NCBI GenBank assembly: GCA_902593845.1
Contig: CACJJV010000002.1
Location: 15,028 to 79,027, forward strand
From: an uncultured Pelagibacteraceae bacterium
Lineage (GTDB): Bacteria; Pseudomonadota; Alphaproteobacteria; Pelagibacterales; Pelagibacteraceae
Direction: 5' to 3'
Length of the DNA: 64,000 nt
Shown here: piece by piece, positions 8,206-15,103 of the stretch
Layout: each line of letters begins with the position of its first letter
Position numbering within the stretch: the first letter of the stretch is position 1
Notes under the pieces: model-generated
What the model saw: the letters and a program-made list of their open reading frames with translations, nothing else
Databases searched by the model: none
What the model was told of the DNA's origin: nothing
Program-made: the position numbers and the translations under genes

Positions 8206-11588
<3,383 letters not shown>

Positions 11589-12536
11589 TTATTTTTGATT
11601 TAAAATTTTTTTTGCTGGGATTGTTTTTTTAATCCAATTATTTGGAATAGAATTTATACCTTTTAAAGCTGCAAAATATGCTCCAGTAAAATTTGCTCTC
11701 GAACAATTGCACCCACCTGCCTTTATTGTTTTTAAAATAGCATCTTTATAATTTTTTGAATTAATAATTGTATATATTGAGCTGTTAAAAGTTCCTGGAT
11801 AGCTACATGCCATACCTAGTTTCTTTATCGTAGTTGGATTAAACTTTGTTCCAAATTTTTTTATTTTTTTAATGTCATTAACAATTCCTTTAAAAGAATG
11901 ATTTCTATTGAATTTTTCAATGAATTCTTTGATTGGGTCTTCAGCTCCCTTTAACGCAAAATCTATCAAATAAAATTTTGCCATAGCATATTTAAAACTT
12001 ATTTTTGAAACTGTTACAATTTTGAAAATTTTTTCTAAACTTTTAAAATCAAAGCCATAGAGAAAATATGGAAGAGTAGCACAAAAACCATCTGACTCAT
12101 TGACTTTTACACCACCAGAGATCTTCTTTTTTAACTTGATATTTTTTACCGTCTCAATAATATTTTGATGTATCCACGGTCCCTTGACTATACCACGCCA
12201 GTCTTTGACTTTTTTATATTTAGATCTCAGTTTTAAATTTTTCCAATATTTACTACCAGGGCCAAAGTTTTTAAGGATTTTTTTTTTGAAACGTTTCTCT
12301 ATATTTTTGTGTCCATCGAGTAGTGTATGAAACATCACTTGGCCAATTTCATTGTAACCAGAGACTTTTCCGGTTTTGATATTATAGAAGGGACTTCTAT
12401 TTTTTTTTAGAAAAGAAAAGTCTTTTTTTCCTTTAATATAAACGCCTAATTTTTTTTGATTATATACCCAATGTAATGGTCTGGCTGCTGCATCTGCCAC
12501 TGTAGCGCCCAAGAAAACATGAAGATTATTTTTCAC
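11589..12536 (-). CDS. ADP-ribosylglycohydrolase-fold protein, selenoprotein J/J1-crystallin-like (Cys form)
   Basis: GATVADAAARPLHWVY, SPFY, FGPGS.Y, GPW.H, ACSYPG.F, GGCNCSR..F.GA...G...IP..W; GTG start. Confidence 0.8.
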   Translation of the reverse strand: MKNNLHVFLGATVADAAARPLHWVYNQKKLGVYIKGKKDFSFLKKNRSPFYNIKTGKVSGYNEIGQVMFHTLLDGHKNIEKRFKKKILKNFGPGSKYWKNLKLRSKYKKVKDWRGIVKGPWIHQNIIETVKNIKLKKKISGGVKVNESDGFCATLPYFLYGFDFKSLEKIFKIVTVSKISFKYAMAKFYLIDFALKGAEDPIKEFIEKFNRNHSFKGIVNDIKKIKKFGTKFNPTTIKKLGMACSYPGTFNSSIYTIINSKNYKDAILKTIKAGGCNCSRANFTGAYFAALKGINSIPNNWIKKTIPAKKILNQK

Positions 12537-12537
12537 T

Positions 12538-13482
12538 TTAATGAGATAAAAACTTTTCAGCCTCTAGTGCTGCCATACATCCCATACCAGCAGCAGTTAC
12601 GGCTTGCCTAAATGTTTTATCCTTTACGTCCCCAGCTGCATAAACACCTGGTACATTAGTCTCTGTTGAATCTGGTTTTGTTATCAAATAACCCTCATTA
12701 TCCATATTAAGTTGATCTTTAAATAATTGCGTTGCAGGGTCATGACCAATAGCAATGAAAACACCGTCTAATTTTATTTCATCAATTTTATTTGTTTTCA
12801 CATTCTTAACTTTAATTCCTTTAACATTTTTTGGATCTTTATCTCCAATTACATCCTCAACAACTGTATCCCAAATGATTTCAATTTTTTTATTTTCCAT
12901 AAGTTTTTTTTGAAGCATTTTTTCAGCTCTTAAACTATCTCTTCTGTGAATTAATTTTACTTTTGACGCAAATTTTGTAAGAAACATTGCTTCCTCAACA
13001 GCTGCATTACCTCCACCTACAACAGCAACTTCCTTGTCTTTAAAGAAAAAACCATCACATGTTGCACATGCCGATACACCAAATCCTCTGAACTCTTGTT
13101 CAGATTTAATATTTAACCATCTAGCTTGGGCACCTGTGGAAATTATTATGCTATCAGCAGTATATTTTTGACCAGCGTCACCTACAGCCTCAAAAGGTGT
13201 TGTTTTTAAGTTTACTGAACTTATATGATCTTCAATCATTTCTGTTCCAACTGCTTTTGCTTGTTCTTTCATTTGATCCATAAGCCATGGACCTTGAATA
13301 ACATCAGCAAATCCAGGAAAGTTTTCAACATCAGTTGTTGTAGTTAATTGGCCTCCAGGCTCCGCACCATAAACTAAAATTGGATTCAACATTGCTCTCG
13401 CCGCATAAACTGCAGCAGTGTATCCAGCAGGACCAGACCCAATTATTAACACTTTTGTGTGTTTAGTTGGATTTTGACTCAT
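12538..13482 (-). CDS. trxB: Thioredoxin-disulfide reductase
   Basis: GSGPAG, CATCDG, GGGNAA, AAGDV. Confidence 0.98.
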   Translation of the reverse strand: MSQNPTKHTKVLIIGSGPAGYTAAVYAARAMLNPILVYGAEPGGQLTTTTDVENFPGFADVIQGPWLMDQMKEQAKAVGTEMIEDHISSVNLKTTPFEAVGDAGQKYTADSIIISTGAQARWLNIKSEQEFRGFGVSACATCDGFFFKDKEVAVVGGGNAAVEEAMFLTKFASKVKLIHRRDSLRAEKMLQKKLMENKKIEIIWDTVVEDVIGDKDPKNVKGIKVKNVKTNKIDEIKLDGVFIAIGHDPATQLFKDQLNMDNEGYLITKPDSTETNVPGVYAAGDVKDKTFRQAVTAAGMGCMAALEAEKFLSH

Positions 13483-13503: not shown

Positions 13504-14454
13504 ATGACTAAATTAAAAGGTTTATTATTGACCGAGGGTATGCATGGCATGATTAGCCAAGTTGAGGGGCTTGCCAAAGCTCTTAATCTTGAATTTATAC
13601 ACGAAAAAATTGAACTAAATAATTTTTGGAAAATGATTCCTCCAAAATTAACACCCATAAAAGATTTTGTTTTCAAAAATAATATATCAAAAAAATTTAA
13701 TGTAGTAATTTCATGTGGGAGAAAAAGTGTAGTCCCATCAATCTTTTTAAAAAAAAAATTTGGAAGTAAAATTATGAACATTCATATTCAAGATCCGAAA
13801 GTATCATTAAATAATTTTGATTTTGTAATTGCGCCAGAGCACGACGGTCTTGAGGGAAAAAATGTTCTTAAAACCAAAGGAGCAATTCATTATCTTACCG
13901 AAAAAGAGTTAGAGGAAAATGTTAATTATTTAAAACCTAGAATTAAAAAAGAAAAAGTAATTGCGTTTATCGCTGGTGGTCCAAATAAGTATTATGATTT
14001 TAATGATGAAATAATTGAGGAAATTTTTGTTAAAGCCAAAAAAAATTTCATAAATCAAGGTTATCAGCTAATTTTTATACCTTCAATGAGAACACCGCAA
14101 AGAATTATAGATAAAGCTCGAAATTTTTTTGATGATGATCAGATTATAATTCAGGATATTGATAAGAAAGCCTATTTGTCATCACTTAAACTAGCTAATC
14201 ATATTATTGTAACTTGTGACTCTACATCTATGATATCTGAGGCAGCTATGTCGGGGAGACCAATATATGTGGCTCAAATGCCAGCTATTAAAAAAAATAT
14301 TCGTTTCAAAAAATTTTTCGAGCTTTTTAAATCCCTAGAAATAATTAAAAACTTAGGGGACGGAGTAGAAGAATGGAATTATAAAAAACTTAATGAAACT
14401 GATAGAATATCGGGATATATAGAGAAACAATTTAAAGATTATGACTTTTCTTAA
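13504..14454 (+). CDS. ELM1 (mitochondrial fission ELM1)/DUF1022 family protein, GT-B-like
   Basis: G..SQ..GLA, IQDP, FD.VI.PEHD, S.RTP, VT.DS.SMISEA motifs. Confidence 0.85.
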   Translation: MTKLKGLLLTEGMHGMISQVEGLAKALNLEFIHEKIELNNFWKMIPPKLTPIKDFVFKNNISKKFNVVISCGRKSVVPSIFLKKKFGSKIMNIHIQDPKVSLNNFDFVIAPEHDGLEGKNVLKTKGAIHYLTEKELEENVNYLKPRIKKEKVIAFIAGGPNKYYDFNDEIIEEIFVKAKKNFINQGYQLIFIPSMRTPQRIIDKARNFFDDDQIIIQDIDKKAYLSSLKLANHIIVTCDSTSMISEAAMSGRPIYVAQMPAIKKNIRFKKFFELFKSLEIIKNLGDGVEEWNYKKLNETDRISGYIEKQFKDYDFS

Positions 14455-15103
14455 TTCTATATTGAAAAACTCAAAAAAGTATGAATTCCCATTTAATCAC
14501 TGGGAATATAATAATGCTTTAAGTGAAGAAGCTATTAAAGAAATAGAAGGTGCAGACATTCCCGATGTAAGCAAACATAATCTCAATTATGATGGTACAA
14601 GAGCAATTGATGGTGGTGGTGCCGAATTTAGAGAAGGCATAGCTTCAGGCGGTAAGGCAATAAAATTTAGATGTTTTGTTACAAAAGAAAATGCTTCTCA
14701 ATTTCCACATTTAGTAAAATTCATTAATGAACTTCAATCTAAAGAAACATGCGAAACGATCTCCAAAATGATTAATAAAGATTTATCTGGTTCATATGTC
14801 AGACTTGAAGTTATTTGTGATCGTGAAGGTTTTTGGTTAAAGCCTCACTGTGACATTAAAGAAAAATTAATGTCAGGGCTTATTTTTGTAAATAATGCAA
14901 ATGAATCAGAGGAACTAGGCACTGATTTTTATAATGAAAAATTAGAAAAAGTTAAAACAGTTCCCTACAAACATAATTATGGTTATTTATTTACAAGCGG
15001 TCCAAATACATGGCACGGAATGGAAAAGAAAAAAATTGTTAAAGAAAGACGATGTATTCAAGTCAATTATGTTACATTTAAAACTGATTGGAAGGTTGAT
15101 TAA
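14441..15103 (+). CDS. 2OG-Fe(II) oxygenase family protein
   Basis: H-x-D (PHCD), distal His (TWHG), then R..IQ.NY. Confidence 0.8.

What the first reader, a model, noticed from the sequence alone, without database searches (positions are those of the whole stretch)
11589..13482. Selenoprotein J/J1-crystallin-like Cys homolog tightly linked to thioredoxin reductase
Seen: the 315-aa ORF has the ADP-ribosylglycohydrolase layout. The acidic Mg-binding motifs of DraG/ARH enzymes (TDD, GGDxDT) are replaced by SGYNE and GGCNCSR. It also carries ADAAA.PLHWVY, PFY, FGPGS.Y, GPW.H and C.YPG.F. From recall, these blocks match fish selenoprotein J and jellyfish J1-crystallins, with the Cys of MACSYPG (TGT at 11807-11805) at the position of SelJ's selenocysteine. 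Its GTG start lies 1 nt after the trxB stop, same strand. Inference: a thiol-based, thioredoxin-recycled enzyme on an ARH scaffold, retained in a streamlined genome. The linkage could supply a functional clue for the poorly understood SelJ family.
Basis: partly seen in the sequence, partly recalled or inferred. Interest (0 to 1): 0.85.

Follow-up and report, generated by a model that had tools for sequence, protein, structure and literature searches.

The report
SAR11 cysteine homolog of selenoprotein J
A SAR11 marine bacterium carries a cysteine version of the animal and algal selenoprotein J family, an ADP-ribosylhydrolase-fold protein that is likely a thiol enzyme, but its position beside thioredoxin reductase is only one of several gene orders and is a weak clue to function.

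Summary
The 315-aa ORF (11589-12536, minus strand) starts 1 nt after trxB and has the ARH fold. It belongs to the SelJ/J1-crystallin clade: 27% identical to shark selenoprotein J, and separated from DraG/ARH at 100/100 support. C244 is kept in 64 of 66 diverse homologs. Two animal gene models stop at or skip that codon, as expected for a Sec UGA. By transitive alignment to ARH3, H22, D149, C244, C276 and C278 line the former Mg/distal-ribose pocket, and the acidic metal ligands are gone. The trxB clue is weak. trxB is the neighbour in 13 of 55 family loci, one derived clade with one gain and one loss; other loci lie beside rlmN or a methyltransferase. A persulfide-dioxygenase-like gene lies within 2.5 kb in 17 of 50 genomes. 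The gene was found in only 50 of 150 near-complete Pelagibacterales genomes. No TGA variant was seen in 214 bacterial loci. Best reading: an accessory, C244-centred thiol enzyme, likely recycled by the general thiol pool. It is a new member of a known, functionally uncharacterised family.

The parts
11589..12536 (-). SelJ/J1-crystallin-clade protein, 315 aa, ARH fold
11805..11807 (-). Cys244 (TGT); inferred Sec-equivalent; aligns to human ARH3 Ile271
11697..11711 (-). C276-N-C278-S279-R280, replacing ARH3 D314-x-D316-T317; R280 invariant in 66 of 66
12471..12473 (-). His22, at the place of the DraG Glu28 / ARH3 Glu41 'Glu flap'
   Evidence: coordinate computed from the ORF start
12354..12362 (-). 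S59-G60-Y61, replacing the T-D-D metal motif
12090..12092 (-). Asp149, at the place of the Asn of the G-N-G motif (ARH3 Asn151); Asp in 59 of 66
12538..13482 (-). trxB, thioredoxin-disulfide reductase; upstream neighbour in this lineage only
10344..11588 (+). Aspartate aminotransferase-like gene, convergent; abuts trxB directly in genomes that lack the insert at this site

Best explanation
This gene is a cysteine-type member of the SelJ/J1-crystallin branch of the ARH fold and likely acts as a thiol enzyme whose Cys244 reacts with an oxidised or sulfur-bearing small substrate, while its place after trxB is a lineage-specific gene order. Shown: fold, clade, residue replacements, conservation and variable gene order. 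Inferred by transitive alignment: H22, Y61, D149, C244, C276, C278 and R280 line the pocket that holds two Mg ions and the distal ribose in ARH3, so binuclear-metal ADP-ribose hydrolysis is likely lost. Inferred: C244 is the catalytic thiolate (Sec in animals and algae). It would form a mixed disulfide or persulfide, C278 would resolve it where present, and the general thioredoxin or glutathione pool would re-reduce it, with no dedicated TrxB. The substrate class (persulfide, disulfide or peroxide detoxification) is the weakest step and rests only on recurring redox neighbours.
For: Cys conservation: C244 in 64 of 66 diverse homologs, 44 of 44 further homologs and 214 of 214 bacterial loci covering it. 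Sec position: animal-type P0270 ends one residue before this Cys, and a moray-eel gene model skips the segment. Sec/Cys exchange typically marks catalytic redox or nucleophilic sites (own knowledge). The lens crystallin J1B has Ser at 244 and Ala at 278, so the fold does not need these thiols. Pocket: C244 aligns to ARH3 Ile271, which shields C4''/C5'' of the distal ribose next to the Mg ligand matching C276 (PMC6309922 passages). The pyrophosphate-binding His of the T-H motif is lost. Gene order. Redox neighbours in different contexts: trxB; a persulfide-dioxygenase-like gene within 2.5 kb in 17 of 50 genomes; a catalase-peroxidase-like gene (my reading of the ORF, L197); GST near L140 and L152.
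Against: No activity data exist. Cys-Cys distances could not be measured because the model's coordinates are not returned. Cys/Asp exchange at 276 (43/23 of 66) looks like a metal ligand, not a redox Cys. 9 of 44 further homologs have E22/C244/D276/N278, with no resolving Cys. The commonest single neighbour is rlmN (25 of 55), which is not a thiol-redox gene. The dioxygenase-like gene is near-core in the window's genus (107 of 114), is far away or not found in 33 of 50 carriers, and much of its linkage is one inherited locus. The trxB order has been kept across two genera and down to about 72% identity, so a benefit from co-expression is not excluded.
Confidence: 0.5

Rival explanations
1. The pocket is a rebuilt soft-metal site (Zn or Fe held by H22, C/D276, C278 and C244) that still cleaves or binds an ADP-ribose-like or other nucleotide adduct.
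For: H22, C276 and C278 sit exactly at former metal-ligand positions. Cys/Asp exchange at 276, and His/Glu at 22 in some homologs. Invariant R280 could bind a phosphate (inference).
Against: C278 is lost in several members while C244 stays. Sec is rarely a plain Zn ligand (own knowledge). The pyrophosphate His is lost. No macrodomain or sirtuin was found in the 88%-complete genome; the DraT search had no positive control.
Confidence: 0.25
2. One reading: trxB and this gene form a dedicated functional unit, and the protein is a specific client of TrxB/thioredoxin.
For: 80 of 80 closest loci abut trxB. The order is kept in members of two genera. Same strand, 1-nt gap, and no terminator-like site between the genes.
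Against: One origin and one loss on the tree. 42 of 55 family loci and 9 of 9 non-SAR11 loci lack trxB nearby. In 3 of the 13 linked loci an SDR gene lies between. The slot after trxB holds aspC or other genes in 10 of 10 genomes checked that lack the gene there. The two WC[GA]PC thioredoxin-like ORFs are on another contig.
Confidence: 0.12
3. It is a non-catalytic ligand-binding or scaffolding pseudoenzyme, like lens J1-crystallins or trypanosome mt-SAF23.
For: mt-SAF23, a mitoribosome assembly factor by its PDB title, is the second-best PDB sequence hit of the family profile (E=4e-17). A structural role for SelJ has been suggested (PMC13134290 passage).
Against: Near-invariant C244, H22, Y61, D149 and R280 across bacteria, protists and animals. 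The actual lens crystallin J1B has lost C244 and C278.
Confidence: 0.13

Closest known systems
Selenoprotein J (SELENOJ) / J1-crystallin subfamily
   Same: Same clade, same motif blocks, Cys at the inferred Sec site; 24-27% identity to shark SelJ and Tripedalia J1B.
   Different: Bacterial, Cys-encoded (TGT), no SelA found in 6 of 6 genomes checked. The papers I saw describe the family in fishes, invertebrates and algae and call it functionally uncharacterised.
DraG / ARH1 / ARH3 / Tri1 ADP-ribosylhydrolases
   Same: Same fold: VIA Z 29.3, rmsd 2.5, 268 aligned for DraG; Z 27.6, rmsd 3.0, 278 aligned for ARH3. PF03747.
   Different: The E...[T/S]DDT...DxDT metal ligands are replaced by H...SGY...CNCS; the T-H His is lost; far below the DraG and Tri1 cut-offs; separate clade at 100/100.
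Proteobacterial 'LHWLYD...GGDxCGR' ARH-like proteins (L139-L144)
   Same: Same motif change: His, Tyr, Cys244 in 6 of 6, Cys278 in 5 of 6; on the SelJ side of the tree.
   Different: Distant (60-77 bits vs 423), Asp at 276; no trxB-like ORF seen in the 1.5-kb flanks (my reading).
SAR11_1227 'ADP-ribosylglycohydrolase' of HTCC1062
   Same: Probably the same gene family (inferred from the name, not checked by sequence). It was listed in 2007 among genes never found on syntenic Sargasso Sea fragments (PMC2217521 section 12 part 1).
   Different: The passages I read make no link to SelJ or to the cysteine motifs.

Membership tests
SelJ/J1-crystallin subfamily | Groups with SelJ and J1-crystallins apart from canonical ARH/DraG | tested here: met
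   IQ-TREE 100/100; Atlas top hit 'crystallin J1A-like' 0.96
SelJ/J1-crystallin subfamily | Full-length similarity to named members | tested here: met
   Shark selenoprotein J 27% over 306 columns, E=3e-39; Q03443 J1B 24% over 312 columns, E=4e-33
SelJ/J1-crystallin subfamily | Cys at the position of SelJ's Sec | tested here: inconclusive
   Indirect support only: two animal-type records stop at or skip the C244 codon. No record bearing U was returned, and supplements with Sec alignments could not be read.
Selenoprotein proper | In-frame UGA and Sec machinery | tested here: not met
   TGT/TGC in 214 of 214 bacterial loci; SelA not found in the own genome (88% complete) or 5 of 5 relatives
Canonical ARH/DraG hydrolase | All-helical ARH fold | tested here: met
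   pLDDT 96, Foldseek TM 0.72 to 1t5j; VIA Z 30.7, rmsd 2.7, 280 aligned
Canonical ARH/DraG hydrolase | Binuclear metal ligands E...[T/S]DDT...DxD[T/S] | tested here: not met
   H22, S59-G60-Y61, C276-N-C278-S279
Canonical ARH/DraG hydrolase | Pyrophosphate-binding His (T-H motif) | tested here: not met
   Column is variable and not His in SelJ-clade rows
Canonical ARH/DraG hydrolase | Metal-dependent hydrolysis of ADP-ribosyl bonds | not testable with these tools
   Needs an enzyme assay
Dedicated trxB-coupled redox module | trxB adjacency kept across the family or gained repeatedly | tested here: not met
   13 of 55 family loci, 0 of 9 non-SAR11 loci, 2 changes on the tree
Dedicated trxB-coupled redox module | Co-transcription with trxB | tested here: inconclusive
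   Only assembled contigs of 4 RNA runs were available; they cannot show a transcript
Dedicated trxB-coupled redox module | Reduction by thioredoxin/TrxB | not testable with these tools
   Needs a coupled NADPH assay

The most novel reading that the evidence does not exclude
SAR11 and a few other marine bacteria obtained a eukaryote-type SelJ by cross-domain transfer. The family is an ARH scaffold rebuilt into a Cys/Sec sulfur-transfer enzyme that works with persulfide dioxygenase and rhodanese, which would give selenoprotein J its first function. The marine bacterial proteins group with Clytia and chrysophyte homologs at 100/99, and monophyly of the named eukaryotes is rejected at AU p=0.027. 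The direction of transfer is not established.
Probability: 0.15. Interest if true: 0.7.

Novelty: new member of a known kind. Interest (0 to 1): 0.36.

Why it matters
SelJ is a selenoprotein described as functionally uncharacterised (PMC13134290 passage). A compact, Sec-free bacterial version with a confidently modelled fold and a defined set of pocket residues (H22, Y61, D149, C244, C276, C278, R280) is an easy protein to express, mutate and crystallise. It occurs in about a third of the near-complete Pelagibacterales genomes searched. The trxB neighbourhood should not be taken as the answer; the persulfide-dioxygenase neighbourhood is about as common and deserves the same test.

Tried and rejected
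Viral origin: no relative in viral contigs or annotated phages. Plasmids gave 4 distant hits at 24-25% identity. Bacterial Sec variants: none in 214 loci, but these are mostly SAR11 and the sample cannot exclude them elsewhere. The GTDB scan returned only the best 80 of 405 loci, all Pelagibacteraceae, so the other 325 were not seen. The first metagenome scan found nothing; the second returned 80 of 519 from about half the collection. Promoter-like sites were at chance level (15 vs 10.8 +/- 3.4). RNA contigs touch the gene in 4 of 4 runs, but they show neither strand nor level. The DraT search was uninformative because no control rang. Dependence on the dioxygenase was rejected: none was found in 12 of 50 carriers. 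The AU test (p=1.6e-63) was discarded because unnamed, probably eukaryotic rows were forced outside; it was repeated with 25 named or context-assigned rows. No complex prediction was run, since no binding is claimed. Literature: ten searches showed no paper linking a SAR11 or bacterial gene to SelJ. The founding SelJ paper (Castellano 2005) is not held and may discuss bacterial homologs. Earlier-findings look-ups returned nothing.

Full report
Observation. The window comes from a Pelagibacteraceae (SAR11) genome: its nearest GTDB loci are all titled Pelagibacteraceae or Pelagibacter. The ORF at 11589-12536 (-) is 315 aa and starts with GTG one base after the stop of trxB (12538-13482); its stop abuts the convergent aspartate aminotransferase-like gene. 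trxB passes TIGR01292. The ORF hits PF03747 above cut-off but scores only 18-23 bits on the DraG and Tri1 models, whose cut-offs are 337 and 490. All motifs and the TGT at 11807-11805 are as stated.

Family. A search of 1.84 billion representatives gave 712 hits at E<=0.001. I looked up names for 30 of them. Named ones were shark 'selenoprotein J', Tripedalia crystallin J1B (Q03443), crystallin J1-like proteins of Aplysia, Branchiostoma, Antedon and Lingula, and homologs from moray eel, Solemya and Vitrella. Pairwise identity is 27% to shark SelJ and 24% to J1B. In a 58-row tree the SAR11 proteins, SelJ/J1 proteins and a distant proteobacterial group lie on one side of a 100/100 branch against three DraG and twelve other ARH proteins. 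With 25 named or context-assigned rows and a mixture model, the marine bacterial proteins join Clytia and Ochromonadaceae homologs at 100/99, and monophyly of the 11 named eukaryotes is rejected at AU p=0.027. The SAR11 rows have biased composition and the base of the clade is unresolved, so cross-domain transfer is a lead and its direction is not shown.

Structure and pocket. AlphaFold2 on a 66-row alignment gave pLDDT 96. Foldseek and VIA-align return ARH-family structures first (MJ1187 Z 30.7, rmsd 2.7, 280 aligned; DraG Z 29.3; ARH3 Z 27.6). No SelJ-named structure appeared among the hits. Coordinates are not returned, so I mapped residues by alignment: query to DraG and to an ARH3-like protein, and that protein to human ARH3 (numbering counted from the D314E chain). 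H22 takes the place of the Glu flap residue, S59-G60-Y61 of T-D-D, D149 of Asn151, C244 of Ile271, and C276/C278/S279 of D314/D316/T317. Passages of PMC6309922 place the Ile and Asn equivalents beside the Asp314-equivalent Mg ligand and over the distal ribose. Passages of PMC7050489 state that all characterised ARHs need the binuclear metal centre. The pyrophosphate-binding His is lost. So the cysteines are inferred to cluster in the former active site, and canonical hydrolysis is unlikely.

Which cysteine matters. In 66 diverse homologs C244 is kept in 64, C278 in 58, H22 in 60 and R280 in 66; position 276 is Cys in 43 and Asp in 23; C152 is kept in only 21. In 44 further homologs C244 is kept in all, while 9 have E22/D276/N278. 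The two exceptions in the 66 are informative: lens crystallin J1B has Ser, and a moray-eel automatic gene model skips the segment. An animal-type record, P0270, ends one residue before this Cys (the Cys of the partner sequence is read). Both fit an in-frame UGA there, but no U-bearing record was returned and the relevant supplements were unreadable or held no sequence hit. C244 is therefore the best candidate for the catalytic residue, and the CxC is not obligatory. In bacteria the codon was TGT or TGC in 214 of 214 loci covering it, and SelA was not found in six genomes.

The trxB link. The 80 best of 405 GTDB loci (77-98% identity) all abut trxB, but they are close kin. An even sample of 200 family genomes gave 55 with a match, one of them a 33-residue fragment that I dropped, and one genome with two copies. 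Of these 55 loci, 13 have trxB within 1.5 kb (3 with an SDR gene between), 25 lie beside rlmN, 14 beside a methyltransferase, and 3 elsewhere (the first 29 had only 1.5-kb flanks). Among 80 metagenome loci, 42 are trxB-linked (44 with the wider criterion), and the 9 non-SAR11 loci (39-44% GC) are not. On a FastTree of 134 proteins the trxB context needs two changes: a gain in one derived clade and a loss in a subclade that now sits before a dioxygenase-like gene. In 10 genomes without the gene at this site, trxB abuts the aminotransferase gene in 4 and other genes in 6. RNA-run contigs from 3 of 4 runs join trxB to the aminotransferase gene without the insert. A 2007 study listed a SAR11 'ADP-ribosylglycohydrolase' among genes never syntenic between two populations (PMC2217521, section 12 part 1); that it is this family is my inference.

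Distribution and other neighbours. The gene was found in 50 of 150 genomes at least 90% complete (39 of 114 in the window's genus, 9 of 9 in another, 0 of 13 in the sister family; the sample probably includes one unpublished genome as a single row). In 400 genomes of the phylum only 6 distant relatives turned up. A metallo-beta-lactamase plus rhodanese protein, which I read as a persulfide-dioxygenase type from own knowledge, lies within 2.5 kb in 17 of the 50 carriers, is farther or on another contig in 21, and was not found in 12. It follows the gene in three upstream contexts, but it is also near-core in the genus (107 of 114; this tally includes unpublished G853), so this too is only a lead.

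Mechanism. I commit to a C244-centred thiol enzyme for oxidised or sulfur-bearing substrates, recycled by the general thiol pool (0.5). Rivals are a rebuilt Zn/Fe site (0.25), a non-catalytic binder (0.13) and a dedicated TrxB client (0.12). The fold, clade, residue changes and gene-order variation are shown; pocket geometry, Sec equivalence, chemistry and substrate are inferred.

Novelty. SELENOJ is known as a distinct ARH subfamily with J1-crystallins, functionally uncharacterised, in fishes, invertebrates and algae (passages of PMC13134290, PMC7539508, PMC3473315, PMC2375036). Passages of PMC8120803 and PMC11488344 gave nothing on bacterial SelJ-like proteins. Ten searches showed no paper on a SAR11 member, but the founding paper was not available and unread supplements may bear on this. 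Verdict: a real new member of a known family, useful as an experimental handle, with the headline trxB clue largely explained by lineage-specific gene order.

Noticed in passing
L197:1541-3531, L191:177-2163, L208, L025 (G004), L159:5001-8309: A metallo-beta-lactamase(+rhodanese) persulfide-dioxygenase-like gene follows the SelJ-like gene in three different upstream contexts. In genus g5 the only genome with this gene (1 of 9) has it 1.3 kb from the SelJ-like gene.
   Followed up: partly
L152:4932-9802, L153:3-4856: Non-SAR11 marine bacterial contigs carry the SelJ-like gene, a canonical ARH with an intact TDD motif, and a glutathione S-transferase within about 4 kb.
   Followed up: partly
L139-L144: A distant proteobacterial ARH-like group (6 of 400 genomes) shares the His/Tyr/Cys replacements with Asp at 276; L140 has a divergent GST upstream.
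   Followed up: partly
window 11589-12537; L245-L254: The slot downstream of SAR11 trxB is variable: empty (trxB abutting the aminotransferase gene) or holding epimerase-like, HxlR-like, SDR, YtoQ or SelJ-like genes (some labels are my reading).
   Followed up: partly
PDB 6sga_FP / 9hny_FP: Trypanosome mitoribosome assembly factor mt-SAF23 is the second-best PDB sequence hit of the SelJ-clade profile and shares parts of its altered motifs.
   Followed up: no
L149:1575-2558; G848:C1:800046-800986; L014: A few homologs are interrupted by a stop or frameshift; pseudogene or assembly error was not resolved.
   Followed up: no
G006:C8:690-1628 and G006:C3:37562-38500: One genome holds two divergent copies in different contexts (contamination estimate 2%).
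   Followed up: no
window 13504-15103: An ELM1-family gene (PF06258) and a weak 2OG-Fe(II) oxygenase-like gene are divergent from trxB and stay there in the relatives whose upstream side I inspected, a steadier neighbour of trxB than the SelJ-like gene.
   Followed up: no
window 30001-60000: GC falls to 23-28% over a run of long, mostly plus-strand ORFs; possibly a variable island. Not examined.
   Followed up: no
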